From contig NZ_FOHV01000002.1 of the NCBI RefSeq assembly GCF_900111395.1, forward strand, positions 59,675 to 123,674: 64,000 bases of DNA. The letters run 5' to 3'. The position numbers and the translations under genes are program-made. Source of the DNA: Thorsellia anophelis DSM 18579 (lineage in GTDB: Bacteria; Pseudomonadota; Gammaproteobacteria; Enterobacterales; Thorselliaceae). The notes beneath the pieces are model-generated. The model did not search any database and was not told the DNA's origin. It saw nothing but the letters and a program-made list of their open reading frames with translations. The number at the start of each line of letters is the position of its first letter. The first letter of the stretch is position 1. Below are positions 42,526-52,056 of the stretch, in pieces.

Positions 42526-42627
42526 GAGATGTGGATATGCTTGATTAAGTGTTAGAGCTAACGTTTAATCAAGCTTTAGGTTATTGCATAAATAGCATTT
42601 AATGTATAAATGATGAAGGAAGTTAAA

Positions 42628-43500
42628 ATGTTAGATTCAATTAGAGTATTATTCCAGCACTTATTGCCTAAGCAGTTGCTGACTGTTTTACTAGGATTTG
42701 TTGCAGAGAAACAGTTAGGTTGGTTTACGCAAGGACTTATCAAAATTTTTATCAAAGCCTATCATGTAGATATGCAAGAAGCGAAAGAATCAGAACCAAA
42801 GGCTTATAAAACGTTCAATGAGTTTTTTACAAGACCCTTAAAAGAGGGCGTAAGACCGATTGATGAAAATTTATCGAGTCTTGTGTTTCCTGCAGACGGT
42901 AAATTAAGTCAGTTTGGAGATGTTGAAGGGGAAGCTCTCGTTCAGGCAAAAGGACATACTTACACTTTAACTGCTTTACTCGCGGGTAATACCCCATTGA
43001 TTGATGCATTTGCTGGAGGTCTGTTTGCGACAATTTATCTTTCACCCCGCGATTACCACCGACTTCATATGCCTTGTGACGGGGTGTTAAGAGAAATGAT
43101 TTATGTTCCTGGAGATTTATTTTCTGTGAATTTGCATACTGCAGCACATATTCCGAACTTATTTGCACGTAATGAGAGACTTATTTGTATTTTCGATACC
43201 GAGTTTGGTCTTATGGCACAAATTTTAGTAGGAGCAACAATTGTTGGTAGTATTGAAACGGTGTGGGCTGGATGCGTAACCCCACCAAGAGAGGGGATTA
43301 TCCAGAGATGGACTTATCCAAAAGAGGGTGAGGTAGATGAATCTTTAGTGATTAAGTTGAAAAAAGGTCAAGAGATGGGACGCTTTAAACTCGGTTCAAC
43401 AGTCATTAATCTTTTTGTTAAAGATTCACTTACCTTTGATGCAACTGTGACACTAGGTCAATCGACGAAGCTTGGTGAATTATTTTTACAGAAAAAATAA
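42628..43500 (+). CDS. psd: Phosphatidylserine decarboxylase proenzyme
   Basis: Collinear with E. coli Psd, including the LGST self-cleavage motif ([11 protein letters not shown]) and [12 protein letters not shown]. Start set at MLDSIRV. Confidence 0.9.
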
Positions 43501-43518
43501 CCATAAATCGCATCATAG

Positions 43519-43546
43519 AAGCGAATGATGATTTTATCATTCGCTT
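43519..43546 (+). terminator. Perfect 11-bp hairpin immediately after psd (no U-tract)
   Basis: AAGCGAATGAT gatttt ATCATTCGCTT. Lacks a T-run, so it may be rho-dependent or a stability element. Confidence 0.35.
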
Positions 43547-44181
43547 AAAATAGCCTTGTTTATTAAATGAGCTCATAGCTCATTACACGGCTAAGTGGAA
43601 GGCATCGAAGAAAAAGGCATAGAAGCAGCCTATTGATAAAGACGAGTATTAATTTACTAAATTAACAATCAAAGCTAAAAGCTATCGAAGTATCTCTTGT
43701 TGATTGCAATCTGAGTTGCTAGTATTTGAAGATAAACCCTATTTTGTTGTTAAGATTAGTCTTTGGGATGGAATAAATCCGTCATTTAAAGGACTTATGA
43801 TTCTAATGACAAATCAGAATATTACCAGGTTAGCTCAAGCTAGGGCTATTTATGCAGGTTATATTTTGTTTTTTAAAACAGAATTTAGGTTGGTTGATTT
43901 TTAAGTTTTTGATTTTTAATTGATTAATGGTTTATTGGCGATTGTTTTTTTAGTGAGTTACTTTAAGGAAATTGAGGGCCAATTAAACACCCACCCCTTA
44001 GCATTATTTCACTGCGATATTGCCCTTTCTAAAGTAAAGTACACTTTTTTATTTTCGGGTAGGATGAATACAAGTCGCTAGTTATCTAGAAGTTGCCGAT
44101 TTGATGAAAGAAAATAACATATGTGTGTGCGTTTTTAAACATAATACCACTTATTTACATCTCGATTGATAGGAGTATTTG

Positions 44182-47100
44182 ATGACACTTCCCCCTGTGT
44201 TTACAGAGCAGAGTTTTACAGCAAAAGAAGTTCAAGATTTTCGAAATGTATGGCGCAAAGCCTTCACTGCTTTATTAGCAGGTGATGAAGAAAAAGCAGC
44301 TTTTTTGCCTGAAACAATTCGCGCTTTACCCAAGCCCGTAATTGAATTTGCTAGCCAATTATTCCCCAGTAATACTTCTGGGCATAACGCTTCAGGTATG
44401 AAATTATATTTCACTTTAGAAAGTGCTTCGTTTGCCGCTATTTTGCCATTGATACCTGAAGATCTATGGCAAAATGAGGATTATTTAACCTTATTCACCT
44501 ATTTATATGGAGCTGAAAGGTTGCCTTTAGTGAAGCATACGTGGCATAAAATCCCCGAGAAAATCTATCAATATGGTTATTACCGTCGCTCTTTTCGTGC
44601 ACCACAAGATAGCCAACGGATACGAGTTAATCAATTGAATTTTTTATCTAATATTTGCCAGCCATCTAGATGGTACGATAACAATAACAATAAATGGCAT
44701 TATTATCAATTGAGTCTAGTTGAACAAATTAGGTATGATCATCAATTATATCAAACTTCCCAAATGCTACTTTGGTCGGCGGCATTAGATCTAGAATACC
44801 CTGAAATTTACCAAACCTTTGAAGATATTATTTTTAATAAAGATAATATTGGAAAAGTCAGTGTTACACTGATTCAGGCATTATTGAATAGTGAAAAGGT
44901 CGCCAGTTGGCAATTAGTCGAAAAATTACTATTAGCCGCTCAACGCCAAGAAGGCTTGCGTCAAATGATTTTAGAATCCTTAGATGAAACCAGTATTGGT
45001 GCTTTAACTTATATGATCCAAGTGATTTTGGAACATAAATTGACGCGTTTTTCATCATTAGTACGTGCGGTCGATACTTGGACAGGTCTCGGTTGGGAAG
45101 CTGAAAAAGAGCGCGTAGTAAAAGATATCTTATCCTTAGCCCACACCTATTTACAGCAACCGGCGTTGATTTCACAGGCAATAAAAAGTAAAAATAATAA
45201 TGAAGTTTATATGGCACTGTGGGCGCAAGGAGTATTCGATATTGAAAAAACGCAGCCCCATTTAAACTATTTAGTGCAACGAGGCAATGTTGAGAAAAAA
45301 TTATTAGCCATCAAATTTGCCAGTGAGATAAATATTCCCACCTTAGAAATTCCCTTTTATTTATCGATTTTAAATAGCCTAAATAATGAACTAGATGATT
45401 CAAAGGCTAAAGTGGGAGAAAGTAATCAAAAATTGATGATTTTAGGTGCGTTGTTCAGTCGTTTAGTTGAGTTATTTCAGCAGCACAATGCAGGCTATGC
45501 TGATTCACAATTATTTGCGAAAATTTATGCTCTAGCAGCAAGCATCCAGACCCAAGAACAAAGTTTTACTGGGAAGGTATTTTCTTGGTTAACTATAAAT
45601 TTTAGAAAAAGTGATATTTATTTAGTACTCACCGAATTAGCGGGCGATAATCAAACAGATAATAACCAATTATTAGCAATATTTGATACGTTAGCGATTA
45701 ATGTGCGTGAAGCCATCACCCTAAAAATATTAGGTCGCCATTATTATTATGCTTATGAATTTAATACAATAGAAAAGCCTTCCACATTAACTGCAAGACA
45801 ACGTGAATTTTGTTTTCAAGTTTTGAGTGATCGTGCAGAAGGGATCGCGGCTAGCGCATTACGTGGTTTGTCATCGGTGCAACTTACCCCTGTTGAATTA
45901 GAGCAAATCTACCCATTACTGAAACGTAAAGCGGCTAGAGTACGTAAAAATACCATCACATTGATGGCTAAGCAGTCAGATACTACCCTAGAAACCTTTA
46001 TTGCAAGCCACCTTACGCTTGGGGATCTGGAACAAAAAATCGGGCTATTAGATCTCATTTTGCAATTAAAAACACAACAACGTTTATTGACTCAGATCGA
46101 TAAATGGGCAGAGCGTTATCAGAAAGAAAATAAAGTGTCCGCACGTGAGTTAACTTTATTACAGCAGTTGACCCAAAACGGTGATGAGCAAGCGTTTGTG
46201 TCTGCCGAAAACGGTTATGGATTATTTGATCCCAGTCGGATTGAGGCTAAACAACCACTCAGTGTGAAGACAGATAGTCTGTATCAAAAGCGTATTGCAA
46301 AAGAGCAATATGGGTTTTCTCAACCACTAGATACAATCAAAGTACATTTAGCCGCACTGAATCAATTGTATTTAGCGCACCAATATTACGAATATGAAGT
46401 AGAATATTATGGCGGAGAGTTTACTAAAGTTTTACTTAGCAATAGTTTACAATATAGCCGAAATACATTTGAGAAGGGGTATTCCGCTAGGGAGATTTTT
46501 GAACTTTTACCCCTTTGGCAAGAGTGGGAAAACTGGTATCAAGCCTCTGGTTTAGATCCGATTGATCTACTGTTATTGACCTTGATTGATGGCTGTAATC
46601 GAAAAGTGTGGCGGGATACATTAAGTCCGATGATGTTTTTTCATAAAAATGTGCTGATTAATCCAAAACAATCGGCTTATCAATGGGATAATCCAGCTAA
46701 AACCATTCTTGAAGGTTTATTAAAATTAGAATTAGGGAATAAAGAGAACCAAAACGTGGTGGTTGACTTTTTATTAGATGCCTGTGAACAGCTATTTTTA
46801 TCATTACCTGACGAAATATTACAATACCAAATTGATACGAAGGATAGTTACGGCTACCATGGTGATGGTTGGCAACAAGAACCTATCTTTAGTACTTTCC
46901 TACACTCGGCTTATTCACACTCTGGGCCCACCCTTAAGTTAGATCTTGTCACTACGGCACGGTTATTTAAGTTATATAAATGGCGAATGGAGTCTGGTTT
47001 AGCGCATAATCGCGACCATGCTCGCCCCCCAATTGAGCTATATTTACAGGCATTCCATCATCAGCTGATCGGTGAAGATGAACTCTATTTTGCTTTATGT

Positions 47101-49335
47101 GAACCTAGTGCATTACGTAAATTGACAGCATGTTTACAAATTAAACAACAACACCAGTTTAATTATTGCCAACATTATCCATTTTTAACTGCGATGCTAA
47201 CGCGCATTATCAATATGTGTTTAGATATTGAATTGATACGTGGCGATTCAAGCACTTTAGTAACTCATTTTAGTCAAGAGTTACAAGTTATTTTTGGCAG
47301 TCAACGTTTAGTGCAAATTTTAGTCGGTTTAGATAAAACCAATCTATATCGAGGGTATATTTACGCAGGCTATAATCAAAACCAGCTTAATAAACAGCAA
47401 ATGTTCAGTTATTTATTAAAGCGTTGTTATCCACTGCCGACGGATACTCAAGCGGAATTTAACCAAATGGTTACCCAGTTTAACATTAAAGAATCACGGT
47501 TAATTGAAGCTGCAATCTACGCACCACAATGGCAAAAATGGGTGAGTGACTTTTTAGGGTGGAAGGGATTAGACTCAGCTATTTGGTGGATGCATGCGCA
47601 TACTAAAATCGCTAGCTATCAAGATGTGAATGCTGAAAATGAGAGTGAAATTGCCAGATATTCAGCTATCGATCTGAATGAATTTAAAAATGGTGCGGTG
47701 GATAAAGAGTGGTTTACGGCTGCTTATAAAGCCTTAGGCAAAACTCGTTGGAATATATTATATACTGCTGCTAAATATATTTCTGAAGGTAATGGTCATA
47801 AGCGAGCACGATTGTATGCAGATGTGATGACCGACAACTTAAAGATCCGTGAAGTGATAGCTAAAGTGAAAGAGATGCGTGATCAAGATTATTTGCGTGT
47901 TTATGGTTTGGTGCCATTGAGCAAAACTAACCCAGAAAAAGATGTACTTACGCGTTATGAATATTTGCAACAGTTTAAAAAAGAGAGTCGCGAATTTGGT
48001 GCTCAGAAACAAGCAAGCGAAGCATTAGCGATTCAAATTGCGATGGAAAACCTTGCCCGTAATGCTGGATATGCTGATCCGGTGCGTTTAACTTGGTCAA
48101 TGGAAATGCAGCAAGTGCAGCGTATTTTATCCACCGAAACCGATGTTATCTTGGATGATTTGCAGATTAAGTTAGTCGTTGATGCCACCGGTATCGCGGA
48201 CTTGGTTTATAGCAAAGCAGGTAAGCCTTTAAAATCCCTACCTAAGGCGCATAAAAAAAATCCTGAGGTATTATCTCTCATGGAGAAGCGTAAAACCTTA
48301 CGCGAGCAATATAAGCGGGCACTACGTGGATTAGAAGAGGCAATGGTGCGAGGGGATGAATTTACTCTACAAGAGATGTTGAACCTACTTGAACACCCAG
48401 TGATAACTCATCACTTACAAAAACTAGTCTTTATTACCCAGGATAAGCAAACAGGATTTTTACGTGACGGACAGCTAATTTCAGCAACGGGTGAAGTTCA
48501 CCCTTTGCATGACGAGGCTCAAACACTTCGCCTACGGATTGCACACTGCGTTGATTTACATCTTACTCAAGAATGGGTGGCCTATCAGAAGGTTTGTTTT
48601 AATCAGCAATTACAGCAACCGTTTAAACAAGTGTTCCGTGAACTGTATCTGCCTACTGCGGATGAACTTGCCGCCAAAACCGTCTCCCACCGTTATGCAG
48701 GGCACCAAGTCGCGCCTAAACAGACTTTAGCACTGCTAAAAACACGTGGATGGAAAGTCGATTATGAAAGTGGCTTACAAAAAGTTTTCCATAAACATGG
48801 TTTTATCGCCAGAATATATGCTGTAGCTGATTGGTTTTCACCTGCTGACGTTGAAAGCCCTACTTTAGAAACGGTTGAATTTAACTCACTTAAAACGGGG
48901 GACAACGTTGAGTTCAGTTCGATTGCACCTATTATTTTCTCAGAAGTAATGCGTGATTTGGATTTAGTGGTTTCTGTTGCTCATGTTGGTGAGGTTGATC
49001 CAGAAGCAAGTCAATCATCAATTGAGCTACGTGCTGCACTGTTACGTGAAACTGTAGATTTATTTAAACTTAAGAACATTGAGATTGCTGGCAGTCATGC
49101 CCTCATCACTGGCAGTTTAGCCCAATACAGTATACATTTAGGCAGCGCGGTAGTGCATCAATTAGGTGGTAGTTATCTATCCATCATAGCGGTACCCTCT
49201 CAGCATCGCGGACGGATATTTCTCCCCTTTATGGATGAAGATCCAAGGACAGCCGAAATCATGGCAAAAGTATTGTTGTTAGCGTGCGATGATGAAATTC
49301 AAGATCCGACCATTTTGCAACAAATTAGGCGGTAA
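44182..49335 (+). CDS. Giant (~1717 aa) alpha-helical hypothetical protein; possibly DUF4132/MolR-like C-terminal region
   Basis: Single uninterrupted ORF with AGGAG SD 6 nt before the ATG. No P-loop, nuclease, protease or TM motifs seen. Helical-repeat composition. The C-terminal segment (…VSVAHVGEVDPEASQSSIELRAALLRETVDLF…GSHALITGSLAQYSIHLGSAVVHQLGG…) resembles, from memory, the C-terminus of DUF4132 proteins such as E. coli YehI/MolR; unverified. Confidence 0.5.
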   Translation: MTLPPVFTEQSFTAKEVQDFRNVWRKAFTALLAGDEEKAAFLPETIRALPKPVIEFASQLFPSNTSGHNASGMKLYFTLESASFAAILPLIPEDLWQNEDYLTLFTYLYGAERLPLVKHTWHKIPEKIYQYGYYRRSFRAPQDSQRIRVNQLNFLSNICQPSRWYDNNNNKWHYYQLSLVEQIRYDHQLYQTSQMLLWSAALDLEYPEIYQTFEDIIFNKDNIGKVSVTLIQALLNSEKVASWQLVEKLLLAAQRQEGLRQMILESLDETSIGALTYMIQVILEHKLTRFSSLVRAVDTWTGLGWEAEKERVVKDILSLAHTYLQQPALISQAIKSKNNNEVYMALWAQGVFDIEKTQPHLNYLVQRGNVEKKLLAIKFASEINIPTLEIPFYLSILNSLNNELDDSKAKVGESNQKLMILGALFSRLVELFQQHNAGYADSQLFAKIYALAASIQTQEQSFTGKVFSWLTINFRKSDIYLVLTELAGDNQTDNNQLLAIFDTLAINVREAITLKILGRHYYYAYEFNTIEKPSTLTARQREFCFQVLSDRAEGIAASALRGLSSVQLTPVELEQIYPLLKRKAARVRKNTITLMAKQSDTTLETFIASHLTLGDLEQKIGLLDLILQLKTQQRLLTQIDKWAERYQKENKVSARELTLLQQLTQNGDEQAFVSAENGYGLFDPSRIEAKQPLSVKTDSLYQKRIAKEQYGFSQPLDTIKVHLAALNQLYLAHQYYEYEVEYYGGEFTKVLLSNSLQYSRNTFEKGYSAREIFELLPLWQEWENWYQASGLDPIDLLLLTLIDGCNRKVWRDTLSPMMFFHKNVLINPKQSAYQWDNPAKTILEGLLKLELGNKENQNVVVDFLLDACEQLFLSLPDEILQYQIDTKDSYGYHGDGWQQEPIFSTFLHSAYSHSGPTLKLDLVTTARLFKLYKWRMESGLAHNRDHARPPIELYLQAFHHQLIGEDELYFALCEPSALRKLTACLQIKQQHQFNYCQHYPFLTAMLTRIINMCLDIELIRGDSSTLVTHFSQELQVIFGSQRLVQILVGLDKTNLYRGYIYAGYNQNQLNKQQMFSYLLKRCYPLPTDTQAEFNQMVTQFNIKESRLIEAAIYAPQWQKWVSDFLGWKGLDSAIWWMHAHTKIASYQDVNAENESEIARYSAIDLNEFKNGAVDKEWFTAAYKALGKTRWNILYTAAKYISEGNGHKRARLYADVMTDNLKIREVIAKVKEMRDQDYLRVYGLVPLSKTNPEKDVLTRYEYLQQFKKESREFGAQKQASEALAIQIAMENLARNAGYADPVRLTWSMEMQQVQRILSTETDVILDDLQIKLVVDATGIADLVYSKAGKPLKSLPKAHKKNPEVLSLMEKRKTLREQYKRALRGLEEAMVRGDEFTLQEMLNLLEHPVITHHLQKLVFITQDKQTGFLRDGQLISATGEVHPLHDEAQTLRLRIAHCVDLHLTQEWVAYQKVCFNQQLQQPFKQVFRELYLPTADELAAKTVSHRYAGHQVAPKQTLALLKTRGWKVDYESGLQKVFHKHGFIARIYAVADWFSPADVESPTLETVEFNSLKTGDNVEFSSIAPIIFSEVMRDLDLVVSVAHVGEVDPEASQSSIELRAALLRETVDLFKLKNIEIAGSHALITGSLAQYSIHLGSAVVHQLGGSYLSIIAVPSQHRGRIFLPFMDEDPRTAEIMAKVLLLACDDEIQDPTILQQIRR

Positions 49336-49844
49336 GGTTAGTATTTTCGGCGTAACATTAGCTATATATCTTTATTGCTTCAGCTGAGGTCGTTGCAAAA
49401 TTGCTTGTGAATGTTGTTTTTTAGGTTTTAAGATCAAACGTTATGATTTATTTATCATATTTCGTATTTTTAAAGGCTTTTGTAGACGGTTTGCCAATCG
49501 CTGTTAAAAAGTGCATAAATTTGGCTTTTTAACTCGTTTTTATGATGTTTTTCGCTCAGTTTTTTTGACCGATTTTTTTGCTTATTCTGTTGCTTAATCG
49601 TGCACTAGAGATTAGGCAGGATTGAGGGCTAAGAGTCACTACTTTCCATGGCCTGCTTGTCGCGGTAGGACTTAGCCTCGAGTTTGATGATGTAGTACTT
49701 CTCGATTAATCTATCGATTAAAGAGATGGCGGTGGCGTTATTTTCAATGCCCTCAAAAAAAGGATTCAGTGCAAGGCTTCCCAGTTATGGTTTCGTGAAT
49801 TCCCTTATCAGAATTGGTTTTACTGTGGAAACCATAAACTTGAA

Positions 49845-50222
49845 GTGAATTCCGAGAAAGATTTGAAAAGAATCATGATTAAAGAGAAAGAACTCACTGT
49901 CAGCTGTGCAGAACTTGCTGACTATGAAGTGGTAGACGCGATTGGCAAGCTGATTTCATTTGAGCATGTCGCAGAATTATTTCAGGGTTTAGTCAATCTT
50001 AGCCCTAGAAAAGTACAAGATATTCTTGAACGAAGTAGCTCTGTTCAGGCAAACCGAGTATTTCTATTTCTGGGTCGATACTACGATCACCAGTGGGTCA
50101 ATCGCGTAGATGAGACAAGAATTAAATTGGGAGCAGGAAAGCGGCAGGTTGTCGAAAAAGGGCGTTTTGATGAGCGATATCAAATCACAGTGCCAGAGAT
50201 ATTAAACGTCAAAAAAAGATGA
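49845..50222 (+). CDS. Hypothetical 125-aa protein (orphan)
   Basis: Intact ORF with no recognisable family. Lies between an IS-like remnant and the purF 3' end. Confidence 0.35.
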   Translation: MNSEKDLKRIMIKEKELTVSCAELADYEVVDAIGKLISFEHVAELFQGLVNLSPRKVQDILERSSSVQANRVFLFLGRYYDHQWVNRVDETRIKLGAGKRQVVEKGRFDERYQITVPEILNVKKR

Positions 50223-50517
50223 ATAACAGAATGGATAAAGATAGCCCATATTACAAACAGGTTTCTTTGCTCAAAAGAATGCTTCCTGTGGTAGCAACAG
50301 AGACGGTTTTAGCATTACTTAACGCCCACTGAATGGGAATCGGAATAATATCTGCCCCTGCAACTTGAAGTAACTACAGTATAATTTTACAAAAAAATGT
50401 CAATTCAATGTGTCAATATGCAGTTAAATTAGCATTGACTATTTTTTTATGAACTGAATGCCTCGTAATAAGATCCAAGATAATTTTTAGACACTATCTT
50501 GAACCTAATCTTATTTT

Positions 50518-52056
50518 TTAGCCTTCATTATACATATCTAGATTTTCTATCTCATGAGTGGCCTTAATCGCTTGATTATCCGCATTTCTGATGGCATCTA
50601 AACGTTCAAAGTAGGCATCATTTACTTCATCACTCGCATAAACACCATCAAATACTGAGCAATCAAAATCAGTTAAAGTAGGATTTTCTTCTGTGATGGC
50701 TGATTTTAAGTCTTCTAAGTCTTGGAATATAAGCTTATCTGCACCGATTAACTGTCTGATATCTTCAAGCTCTCTTTCATGAGCAATCAATTCGGTTACA
50801 CTTGGCATATCAATACCATACACATTGGCAAAACGAACTTCTGGCGCGGCTGAGGCGAGGTACACTTTTTTAGCACCTGCTTCACGAGCTAAATTCATAA
50901 TTTGCTCAGAGGTCGTACCTCTAACGATTGAATCATCCACTAAAAGTACATTTTTACCTTTAAATTCTGCCGCATTAGCATTTAATTTACGTCTGACAGA
51001 AGCGCTTCTTGCCTCTTGACCTGGCATAATAAAGGTACGACCAACATAGCGATTTTTAACAAATCCTTGACGATAAGGTTTATTTAGAATTCTAGCGATT
51101 TCTAAAGCAGAATCGCATGAGGTTTCAGGAATAGGGATAACGACATCGATGTCGACATCTTGCCATTCCCGTGCAATTTTCTCACCTAGTTTTTTGCCCA
51201 TATTAAGCCTAGCGTTATAAACCGAAACATTATTGATAAAAGAGTCGGGTCTTGCAAAATAGACATATTCAAATATACATGGGCGTAATTTAGGATTCTT
51301 CACACAAATTTTACTATGGAGTTCCGCTTCAGCTGAAATATAGACTGCTTCACCAGGTAAAATATCACGAATCAGCTTAAATCCCAATGTATCTAGTGCG
51401 ACACTCTCTGAGGCTACCATGTATTCTTTATGTTCCGATGTAACACCATTTCGTGTGATTGAGACAATTTTTTCTCCTAAGACTAATGGTCGAATGCCAA
51501 ATGGATCTCTAAATGCAATTAAGCCATATCCACTTATCATCGCAACACAGGCGTATGCGCCTAGAAGGCGAGCATGCGTGCGTTCAATAGCACTAAAAAT
51601 CACTTCTGGAGTAAGGGTTAAATCAGTACATTTATCTAACTCGCTAGCAAGAACATTTAATAACACTTCTGAGTCCGAAGTAGTATTAATATGTCTTTTA
51701 TTGGTTTGATATAATGATTTTCTAAGTGATTCAGTATTGGTCAAATTACCATTATGGGCAAGCGTTAGTCCATAAGGAGAGTTAACATAAAATGGTTGAG
51801 CCTCTGAAGCGCTAGAGCTGCCAGCAGTTGGGTAACGGACATGGCCTATTCCCATGTTGCCTTGTAATCTCTGCATATGTTTAAGCCCAAATACATCTTT
51901 AACCAATCCATTTGCTTTTCTCAGGCGAAAAGCACCAAGGTGGTCTAATGTTACTATACCTGCTGCGTCTTGCCCTCTGTGTTGTAAAACAGTTAAAGCA
52001 TCATAAATTGATTGGTTTACAGGAGATACTCCGACGACCCCAACGATTCCGCACAT
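50518..52056 (-). CDS. purF: Amidophosphoribosyltransferase
   Basis: MCGIVGV N-terminal nucleophile. PRTase motif [13 protein letters not shown]. Conserved cvpA-purF linkage. Confidence 0.96.

What the first reader, a model, noticed from the sequence alone, without database searches (positions are those of the whole stretch)
43547..50517. 7-kb accessory insertion between psd and purF made up almost entirely of one 1717-aa motif-poor giant ORF
Enterobacterial-type synteny places ubiX-purF next to this position. Here, a 5.15-kb single ORF sits in AT-rich DNA between the psd terminator hairpin and the purF 3' end. It has its own AGGAG SD and AT-rich promoter region. I could find no Walker A/B, nuclease (PD-(D/E)xK, HNH), protease, TIR/SIR2 or TM signatures. 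Composition suggests long helical repeat arrays. Only the last ~250 aa look like a family I half-recognise (DUF4132/MolR-YehI-like). The right flank carries a degraded transposase-like fragment (49629-49790, minus) and a 125-aa orphan ORF, consistent with horizontal acquisition. A single huge orphan protein in a mobile context is the classic signature of single-gene conflict or defence systems, and of uncharacterised regulatory giants. Either way it is effectively undescribed.
Basis: partly seen in the sequence, partly recalled or inferred. Interest (0 to 1): 0.75.

Follow-up and report, generated by a model that had tools for sequence, protein, structure and literature searches.

The report
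Partnerless giant DUF4132 scaffold gene insertion
A 7-kb insertion in Thorsellia anophelis carries one intact 1717-residue gene from a widespread but uncharacterised protein family (its Deinococcus member is induced by DNA damage), and this copy lacks the small partner gene that sits just upstream in every other locus examined.

Summary
An intact 1717-aa ORF (44182-49335, +) fills most of about 7 kb between psd and purF. In the sister species Thorsellia kenyensis, psd and purF are 193 bp apart, so this is a lineage-specific insertion.

- The DNA is not AT-richer than the core genome.
- The protein is not motif-poor. Three Pfam families cover it: DUF5724 (94-1307), DUF4132 (1347-1524) and DUF7737 (1615-1715).
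- It is 100% identical to an NCBI entry, "DUF4132 domain-containing protein [Thorsellia anophelis]".
- The family is large: 772 50%-identity clusters at E<=1e-30. The closest relatives are 50-53% identical, in Flavobacteriales and a Neisseriales-like metagenome contig.

New findings:
- In 86 of 86 other loci, plus Bacteroides and Deinococcus, a homologous 134-148-aa gene lies immediately upstream. No trace of it exists in this window.
- The Deinococcus radiodurans operon is drA0165-drA0166, a published DdrO/IrrE DNA-damage-induced unit.
- AlphaFold models show a HEAT/ARM-like solenoid followed by alpha/beta modules with no solved relative.
- There is no PADLOC or phage hit.
- The "orphan ORF" is a truncated AbiEi antitoxin, 95.8% identical in DNA to ICE R997 cargo. 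It sits next to an IS21 IstB remnant.

Function remains unknown. A stress or conflict role is plausible but untested.

The parts
42610..43500 (+). psd (phosphatidylserine decarboxylase), the left core flank of the insertion
   Evidence: Pfam PS_Dcarbxylase E=2.4e-62. It is 100% identical to the T. anophelis entry and 72% to T. kenyensis.
43501..44181 (.). 681-bp spacer upstream of the giant gene. It holds the psd hairpin (inverted repeat about 43519-43546) and no recognisable gene. The partner gene found upstream in every other locus examined is missing here.
   Evidence: tblastn with the 144-aa partner found nothing. A profile HMM of 82 partner sequences against the six-frame window gave a best E of 0.41, elsewhere in the window. 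No Pfam hit for the 66- and 53-aa ORFs. No similarity to any fetched locus. No Rfam family.
44171..44175 (+). AGGAG Shine-Dalgarno, 6 nt before the ATG
   Evidence: Read directly from the sequence.
44182..49335 (+). Giant ORF, 1717 aa, DUF5724-DUF4132-DUF7737 (DRA0166-like family)
   Evidence: ORF. Pfam domains. 100% identical to NCBI 'DUF4132 domain-containing protein [Thorsellia anophelis]'. It keeps 445 of 494 columns that are at least 98% conserved among 119 homologues.
44461..48102 (+). DUF5724 region (aa 94-1307): a HEAT/ARM-like alpha-solenoid with a few beta-hairpins
48220..48753 (+). DUF4132 domain (aa 1347-1524), the only part shared with E. coli YehI
   Evidence: Pfam E=3.9e-45. 23% identity to YehI over aa 1351-1596.
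49024..49326 (+). DUF7737 C-terminal domain (aa 1615-1715), among the most conserved parts of the protein
   Evidence: Pfam E=1.4e-33. Column conservation is 0.83-0.95. The model shows a beta-meander plus helices with no significant PDB match.
49629..49790 (-). Remnant of the C-terminal tail of an IS21-family IstB helper ATPase (51-aa open frame)
   Evidence: Pfam IstB_IS21 positions 204-236 of 238, E=0.05. tblastn hits lie under annotated istB genes, best E=2e-3 at 43% identity. Support is weak.
49787..50314 (+). 528-bp fragment 95.8% identical in DNA to the AbiEi/AbiEii toxin-antitoxin cargo of the SXT/R391-type element R997 of Proteus mirabilis. It includes a truncated AbiEi ORF (49845-50222) and the first ~31 codons of AbiEii (the 37-aa stub ORF at 50219-50332 runs past the matched block into unrelated sequence).
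   Evidence: Pfam AbiEi_3 positions 44-157 of 157, E=2.7e-44. blastn against NZ_KY433363.1. Annotation of L093.
50518..52056 (-). purF, the right core flank of the insertion
   Evidence: Pfam GATase_6/7 plus Pribosyltran. It lies directly next to psd in T. kenyensis.

Best explanation
Shown:
- The region is a mosaic, lineage-specific insertion in Thorsellia anophelis.
- Its main cargo is an intact, horizontally acquired member of the DUF5724-DUF4132-DUF7737 family of ~1630-1740-aa proteins (Deinococcus DRA0166 type).
- Elsewhere this gene was always found as the second gene of a two-gene operon behind a 134-148-aa protein. Here that partner is missing.
- The right end of the insertion is unrelated debris: an IS21 IstB remnant and a recent fragment of an ICE-borne AbiE module.

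Inferred mechanism:
- The N-terminal ~1300 residues form a HEAT/ARM-like solenoid, which would act as a binding platform.
- The strongly conserved C-terminal alpha/beta modules (DUF4132 and DUF7737, 64-70% identical to relatives in another phylum) would be the working end.
- In the canonical operon the giant would act with the small partner, which may be ubiquitin-like.
- The Deinococcus operon is switched on by DNA damage through DdrO/IrrE, so I take the family to be a damage or stress response module. Whether it acts in repair or in damage-triggered conflict is open.
- The Thorsellia copy either works without its partner, borrows one from the second, distant paralogue in the same genome, or is at an early stage of decay.
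For: - Insertion: T. kenyensis has psd and purF 193 bp apart in otherwise identical synteny. Another Thorsellia-like contig has different genes after psd.
- Family membership: three Pfam domains far above their cut-offs.
- Homologues: the 120 listed hits share the architecture, and the best non-self hits are 49-53% identical, in Chryseobacterium, Flavobacterium and a metagenome contig. That contig (L008) is Neisseriales-like by its MoeA.
- Family size: 3215, 2122 and 772 50%-identity clusters at E<=1e-3, 1e-10 and 1e-30; 329 GTDB species genomes matched.
- Partner gene: present immediately upstream on the same strand in 86 of 86 loci. It is the only neighbour conserved across genera. It is homologous in Bacteroides finegoldii and D. 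radiodurans, HMM E=1.6e-28 and 5e-17.
- Partner absence here.
- Deinococcus link: the published RDRM sequence lies 63 nt upstream of the small gene in L091. The paper reports DdrO dependence and mitomycin-C induction of DRA0166, which is absent in a delta-irrE mutant (PMC8533742).
- Constraint: the 5.15-kb frame is open, and 90% of family-conserved columns are retained, against 94% for its nearest relative.
- Mosaic right end.
Against: - No biochemical function is known for any family member. The DNA-damage link rests on one organism and on regulation only.
- No SOS-box excess lies upstream of the Thorsellia gene, and no promoter signal exceeds chance.
- The C-terminal modules match nothing solved (Foldseek best E=0.027; profile against PDB sequences, zero hits), so calling them the 'working end' rests on conservation alone.
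- The ubiquitin-like reading of the partner is weak: Urm1 E=0.44 and hhalign probability 21%.
- Loss of a partner found in every other locus examined argues that this copy may not function as the family normally does.
- I could not retrieve the context of the second paralogue.
Confidence: 0.6

Rival explanations
1. The gene, or the family's two-gene operon, is an anti-phage or other conflict system. The giant protein would sense an invader or damage signal through its solenoid and act through its C-terminal modules.
For: - It sits in a lineage-specific insertion next to toxin-antitoxin and IS debris.
- Its distribution is patchy across phyla, and its nearest relatives are in other phyla or classes.
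- Among 120 nearest neighbours in 33 Flavobacterium loci there are GajA/OLD/AriA-like ATPases (4-5), PADLOC 'SWIM_XIII' WGR-DUF6493 giants (3-5), RlaP (10) and RNA ligase (6) RNA-repair genes, and VgrG-like genes (3). One locus also holds a reverse transcriptase.
- The Deinococcus operon is controlled by a prophage-like repressor/protease pair, DdrO/IrrE (PMC8533742).
Against: - Neither the giant nor the partner has a significant PADLOC hit.
- There is no tblastn hit in 50,697 phage records, and all 14 plasmid hits are on non-mobilizable large replicons.
- About 30 Chryseobacterium species carry the operon in one conserved housekeeping neighbourhood: leuS/exbBD/tonB on one side, nusB/yajC on the other.
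- No effector domain (nuclease, NADase, protease or pore) is recognisable.
- I made no statistical comparison of neighbour content with the genome background.
Confidence: 0.22
2. The Thorsellia copy is a non-functional relic. It would have been brought in on a larger element that has since been deleted down, and it stays open only because too little time has passed since it lost its partner.
For: - The partner found in every other locus examined is absent.
- The rest of the insertion is clearly decayed: AbiEi lacks its N-terminus, AbiEii is reduced to a 37-aa stub ORF, and only an IstB tail remains.
- Retention of conserved columns is slightly lower than in its nearest relative, 90% against 94%.
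Against: - 1717 codons remain open in 38%-GC DNA.
- The protein differs by about 47% from every known relative yet keeps 445 of 494 near-invariant positions, and conservation is concentrated in the same regions as the rest of the family. That pattern needs long-term purifying selection.
- It has a good Shine-Dalgarno sequence.
Confidence: 0.15
3. It is a regulator of molybdate or molybdopterin metabolism, as the old MolR name attached to DUF4132 proteins suggests.
For: - It shares DUF4132 with the E. coli molR/yehH-yehI region.
- By chance or not, moeA lies 2.7 kb upstream in L008 and modA lies nearby in Deinococcus.
Against: - Only 23% identity to YehI, confined to DUF4132.
- No DNA-binding domain is recognised.
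- The Deinococcus study found that molybdate-metabolism genes were not co-regulated (PMC8533742).
- No molybdenum genes lie next to the gene in Thorsellia, Chryseobacterium or Flavobacterium.
Confidence: 0.03

Closest known systems
Deinococcus radiodurans DRA0166 (WP_010889426.1) with DRA0165, the drA0165-drA0166 operon of the radiation-desiccation response (DdrO/IrrE) regulon
   Same: - The architecture and length class match: tblastn covers aa 209-1716 at about 42% identity over the aligned pieces, and the gene is annotated as a DUF4132 protein of 1626 aa.
- It belongs to the family whose small upstream gene is homologous across phyla.
   Different: - The Thorsellia locus has no DRA0165-like gene and no RDRM or DdrO system.
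- Regulation in Thorsellia is unknown.
- Even for DRA0166 only expression data exist, not a function (PMC8533742).
Flavobacteriales and Neisseriales-like DUF5724-DUF4132-DUF7737 proteins (for example Chryseobacterium timonianum P0093, Flavobacterium collinsii P0053, metagenome P0002)
   Same: - 50-53% identity over about 95% of the length, rising to 64-70% in the C-terminal 618 aa.
- The three Pfam domains are the same.
   Different: - All of them have the 144-148-aa partner 23-372 bp upstream (one at 1053 bp).
- The Thorsellia protein lies outside the flavobacterial cluster: 49-53% identity to it, against 53-98% among its members.
E. coli YehI / MolR (YehH), DUF4132 proteins of the yehF-yehQ cluster
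   Same: They share the DUF4132 domain and a long helical N-terminal part.
   Different: - No DUF5724, no DUF7737 and no small upstream partner of this type.
- YehI sits with WGR (YehF), MoxR ATPase (YehL), DUF5682 (YehM), VWA (YehP) and SWIM (YehQ) genes. None of these flanks the Thorsellia gene.
Eukaryotic HEAT/ARM solenoid adaptors (importin-beta, exportins, Mak21, Integrator subunits)

Membership tests
DUF5724-DUF4132-DUF7737 giant proteins (DRA0166 type) | Near-full-length match to Pfam DUF5724 (PF18991) | tested here: met
   E=0, 1024 bits against a cut-off of 25; residues 94-1307 cover profile positions 38-1214 of 1214.
DUF5724-DUF4132-DUF7737 giant proteins (DRA0166 type) | DUF4132 (PF13569) followed by a C-terminal DUF7737 (PF24879) | tested here: met
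   154 bits and 115 bits against cut-offs of 27.
DUF5724-DUF4132-DUF7737 giant proteins (DRA0166 type) | A 134-148-aa partner gene immediately upstream on the same strand (an empirical rule derived here) | tested here: not met
   Present in 86 of 86 other loci and in the Bacteroides and Deinococcus loci. Absent from the whole 64-kb window by tblastn and profile HMM.
DUF5724-DUF4132-DUF7737 giant proteins (DRA0166 type) | Induction by DNA damage (known only for D. radiodurans) | not testable with these tools
   Needs expression data. An SOS-box pattern search shows no excess (20 found, 17 expected).
E. coli YehI/MolR-type DUF4132 proteins | Homology beyond the DUF4132 domain, and a WGR/MoxR/VWA/SWIM gene neighbourhood | tested here: not met
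   BLASTP aligns only aa 1351-1596 at 23% identity. The neighbours here are psd, purF and TA/IS debris; the E. coli cluster is shown.
Known or candidate anti-phage defence systems (PADLOC-DB v2.0.0) | A match to any of the 5027 defence-protein models | tested here: not met
   Zero families at E<=0.1 for the giant. For 15 partner proteins there was only one weak hit, E=0.014.
Genomic island delivered by site-specific recombination | An integrase gene, a tRNA or other att site, and flanking direct repeats | tested here: not met
   No tRNA in the window. No flanking direct or inverted repeats beyond chance-sized matches. No integrase ORF in 43501-50517.
AbiE type IV toxin-antitoxin (the neighbouring remnant, not the giant gene) | A complete AbiEi antitoxin plus an AbiEii nucleotidyltransferase toxin | tested here: not met
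   AbiEi covers only profile positions 44-157 of 157. AbiEii is cut down to a 37-aa stub ORF. The intact genes in ICE R997 are 263 and 312 aa.

The most novel reading that the evidence does not exclude
The conserved pair is an uncharacterised, cross-phylum, damage-inducible system. It consists of a small protein ending in a ubiquitin-like tail (...RLTALAGG at the stop in Deinococcus, ...RLTFLAGSYW in Flavobacteriales) and a ~1700-aa HEAT-DUF4132-DUF7737 protein. The giant protein would handle or conjugate a ubiquitin-like partner, or use it as a switch, in response to DNA damage or infection. The Thorsellia orphan would then show that the giant subunit can be kept on its own.
Probability: 0.15. 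Interest if true: 0.75.

Novelty: new member of a known kind. Interest (0 to 1): 0.5.

Why it matters
- The gene is not a unique orphan. It belongs to one of the larger families of very big bacterial proteins that still have no function, with hundreds of 50%-identity clusters across Bacteroidota, Deinococcota and Proteobacteria.
- Three things found here make the family easier to attack experimentally.
  - It is a strict two-gene unit, and the small partner was not previously tied to it in any library I could search.
  - Its Deinococcus member is the published DNA-damage-induced drA0165-drA0166 operon.
  - Its best-conserved C-terminal modules have no relative among solved structures.
- The Thorsellia locus is a natural 'partner-deleted' case.
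- For the genome itself, the locus is a clear example of mosaic acquisition at a synteny junction in a mosquito-gut bacterium. It includes a recent fragment of an SXT/R391-type ICE.

Tried and rejected
- **Compositional anomaly:** rejected. GC and GC3 are at or slightly above core values.
- **Remnant of the partner gene in the 681-bp upstream spacer:** none found by tblastn, profile HMM, tblastx or blastn against all fetched loci.
- **Mobile-element boundaries:** no tRNA, integrase or terminal repeats.
- **RNA elements:** nothing in Rfam.
- **SOS box upstream:** a one-mismatch CTGT-N8-ACAG at 43866-43881, but the window-wide count equals chance.
- **Sequence relatives in the PDB:** none for the protein, or for the family profile of 1686 positions.
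- **Fold searches:**
  - Foldseek against the PDB gave nothing below E=0.027. The low-probability hits to Knl1 RWD domains, ZipA and a bacterial E1-E2-Ubl complex chain were noted but are not evidence.
- **Ubiquitin-like nature of the partner:** Urm1 was the best PDB sequence hit but not significant (E=0.44), hhalign gave 21% probability, and MoaD gave nothing. I kept this only as a hypothesis.
- **Context of the second T. anophelis paralogue P0249:** not on record.
- **Phage origin:** no hits.
- **NCBIfam:** no model.
Full report
**Observation**

The window holds a single very long ORF at 44179/44182-49335 on the + strand, 1717 aa from the ATG. AGGAG lies 6 nt upstream of the ATG. The left flank is psd (42610-43500, +) and the right flank is purF (50518-52056, -). 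Further out lie dnaQ-like, rnhA and flavodoxin genes on one side and cvpA, a SPOR-domain gene and folC on the other.

The claim that the DNA is AT-rich does not hold. The ORF has GC 0.387 and GC3 0.32, while neighbouring core genes have GC 0.35-0.39 and GC3 0.23-0.29, and the whole window averages about 0.365. Promoter-like and terminator-like matches do not exceed shuffled controls.

**Is it an insertion?**

Yes. The psd protein is 100% identical to the Thorsellia anophelis entry, and the next relatives are Thorsellia-like (79%, 72%, and 72% for T. kenyensis). A T. kenyensis contig has the same order, dnaQ-rnhA-flavodoxin-psd followed by purF-cvpA-SPOR-folC, with only 193 bp between psd and purF. 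About 7 kb (43501-50517) is therefore extra in T. anophelis.

A third Thorsellia-like contig has NUDIX and PAAR genes after psd, so this junction varies between lineages. I found no tRNA, no integrase and no bounding repeats. The insertion is not a recognisable intact mobile element.

**What the protein is**

It is not motif-poor. Three Pfam families cover it:
- DUF5724 at residues 94-1307 (E=0, 1024 bits, near-full-length profile)
- DUF4132 at 1347-1524 (E=3.9e-45)
- DUF7737 at 1615-1715 (E=1.4e-33)

NCBIfam and PADLOC have no model for it. The exact sequence is in NCBI as "DUF4132 domain-containing protein [Thorsellia anophelis]".

The next-best hits are only 49-53% identical. They come from Chryseobacterium, Flavobacterium and a metagenome contig, all with the same three domains and lengths of 1674-1700 aa. 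The metagenome contig (L008) is Neisseriales-like, judged by its MoeA.

The Thorsellia protein lies outside the flavobacterial cluster: 49-53% identity to it, against 53-98% within it. The donor therefore cannot be named.

The family is large:
- The C-terminal 410 aa finds 3215, 2122 and 772 representatives of 50%-identity clusters at E<=1e-3, 1e-10 and 1e-30. Most of the best 150 are 1600-1750 aa long.
- Two peptide patterns found relatives in 329 GTDB species genomes.
- Copies also lie on large non-mobilizable replicons of Deinococcus, Chondrinema, Fulvitalea and Bacteroides.
- None is found in phage records.

T. anophelis has a second paralogue on another contig (WP_177168662.1, 1723 aa). 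It is only about 38% identical to this protein, which is more distant than the flavobacterial proteins are. This suggests two separate acquisitions.

**A conserved partner that is missing here**

In the first flavobacterial loci a 144-aa gene sits just upstream on the same strand. I then checked every fetched locus that carries the giant gene:
- 86 of 86 have it, 23-372 bp upstream, with one at 1053 bp.
- It is the only neighbour conserved across genera.
- The Neisseriales-like contig has a 148-aa version.
- Bacteroides finegoldii has a 139-aa version and D. radiodurans a 134-aa version. Both match a profile of the flavobacterial proteins, at E=1.6e-28 and 5e-17.

The Thorsellia window has no trace of this gene, either in the 681-bp upstream spacer or anywhere else in the 64 kb. 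This holds for tblastn, the profile HMM against all six frames (best E=0.41) and tblastx/blastn.

The partner has no Pfam or PADLOC family. Its tail is ...RLTFLAGSYW in 73 of 82 flavobacterial sequences and ...RLTALAGG followed by the stop in Deinococcus. Its best, non-significant, PDB sequence hit is Urm1 (E=0.44; hhalign probability 21%). A ubiquitin-like beta-grasp fold is therefore a hypothesis, not a result.

**Link to published work**

The Deinococcus locus carries the published RDRM sequence GGTTATGCTATTTACATAAC 63 nt before the small gene. This identifies it as drA0165-drA0166.

PMC8533742 reports several things about this operon:
- It is strongly up-regulated when DdrO is depleted.
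- It is not induced in irradiated delta-irrE cells.
- DRA0166 protein rises after mitomycin C in the wild type but not in delta-irrE.
- Molybdate genes are not co-regulated with it.

No paper in the searchable library mentions DUF5724 or DUF7737, and only five mention DUF4132, all in passing.

**Structure**

Conservation is highest at residues 200-400, 1100-1300 and 1500-1717. The C-terminal 618 aa are 64-70% identical to the flavobacterial proteins, against 41-45% for the N-terminal part.

E. coli YehI shares only the DUF4132 stretch (23% identity) and lacks DUF7737. Its WGR/MoxR/VWA/SWIM neighbours have no counterpart here.

**Is the Thorsellia copy alive?**

The frame is open over 1717 codons in 38%-GC DNA. 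The protein keeps 445 of 494 columns (90%) that are at least 98% conserved in the other 119 homologues, and its nearest relative keeps 94%. This points to long-term constraint, perhaps slightly relaxed. Expression is untested.

**The rest of the insertion**

- The 125-aa "orphan" ORF (49845-50222) is the C-terminal part of an AbiEi_3 antitoxin (E=2.7e-44).
- The block 49787-50314 is 95.8% identical in DNA to the AbiEi/AbiEii pair that lies between traA and dsbC on the SXT/R391-type element R997 of Proteus mirabilis.
- AbiEii is cut down to a 37-aa stub ORF.
- The ICE-derived block begins at 49787. There it abuts (overlapping by 4 nt) a 51-aa frame on the minus strand (49629-49790) that resembles the C-terminal tail of IS21 IstB (Pfam E=0.05; tblastn to annotated istB genes E=2e-3).

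The insertion is therefore a mosaic. It combines an old, diverged giant gene with recent, decayed Morganellaceae-type mobile DNA.

**Defence or not?**

Against a defence role:
- There are no PADLOC models and no phage copies.
- About 30 Chryseobacterium species hold the operon in one conserved housekeeping neighbourhood.

For a defence role:
- Among 120 nearest neighbours in 33 Flavobacterium loci there are RlaP (10) and RNA ligase (6) RNA-repair genes, DEDDh exonucleases (5), GajA/OLD/AriA-like ATPases (4-5), WGR-DUF6493 giants that match PADLOC 'SWIM_XIII' (3-5) and VgrG-like genes (3).
- The Thorsellia copy lies beside toxin-antitoxin debris.

I did not compare these counts with a genome background, so this is suggestive only.

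**Verdict**

- The "orphan, undescribed, AT-rich, single-gene defence" framing is only partly right.
- The gene is a new member of a catalogued but functionally unknown family, and it is unusual in lacking the family's partner gene.
- My preferred reading is a HEAT-type scaffold with conserved C-terminal modules belonging to a damage or stress response pair. This rests on shown architecture, context and one organism's expression data. The mechanism itself is inferred.

Noticed in passing
window 49787-50314: A 528-bp block is 95.8% identical in DNA to the AbiEi/AbiEii toxin-antitoxin genes carried between traA and dsbC on the SXT/R391-type element R997 of Proteus mirabilis. This is a recent fragment of Morganellaceae mobile DNA in Thorsellia, cut at both ends.
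   Followed up: yes
window 49629-49790 (-): A 51-aa open frame resembles the C-terminal tail of the IS21 helper ATPase IstB. It ends where the ICE-derived block begins, overlapping it by 4 nt, which suggests an IS21 insertion truncated abiEi before most of the IS was deleted.
   Followed up: partly
not in the window: T. anophelis WP_177168662.1 (P0249), 36.8-kb contig: A second paralogue of the same three-domain family (1723 aa) exists in the same genome. It is only about 38% identical to the window protein, so it was probably acquired separately. Its gene context could not be retrieved.
   Followed up: partly
L001 9411-9845; L002 9540-9974; L008 9472-9918; L091 4081-4485; L092 4001-4420: The partner protein has no Pfam family. 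Its tail is like the end of ubiquitin-type proteins: RLTALAGG then stop in Deinococcus, and RLTFLAGSYW in Flavobacteriales. It also shows a weak resemblance to Urm1.
   Followed up: partly
L011-L043, flanks of the operon: Flavobacterium neighbourhoods repeatedly hold RlaP nucleotidyltransferase and RNA ligase (RLIG1) genes, 10 and 6 of 120 neighbours. They also hold another giant helical protein type, WGR-DUF6493-DUF7824-DUF7825, which matches the PADLOC model 'SWIM_XIII'.
   Followed up: no
L007 1594-4489 and L006 9298-9655: In other Thorsellia-like contigs the DNA after psd differs again. One has NUDIX, PAAR and M23 peptidase genes, and another breaks 358 bp after psd. The psd 3' junction looks like a recurrent site of gene gain.
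   Followed up: no
window 43501-44181: This is a 681-bp stretch with no recognisable gene, RNA family or similarity to any fetched locus. It holds a 32-nt imperfect direct repeat (43740-43771 and 43862-43893, 72% identical) and a one-mismatch SOS-box-like site at 43866-43881, which is no more than chance predicts.
   Followed up: partly
(genome-contig scan): T. anophelis itself did not appear among the 80 best loci, although the window protein would match at 100%. The species genome is presumably absent from the collection or masked in it.
   Followed up: no
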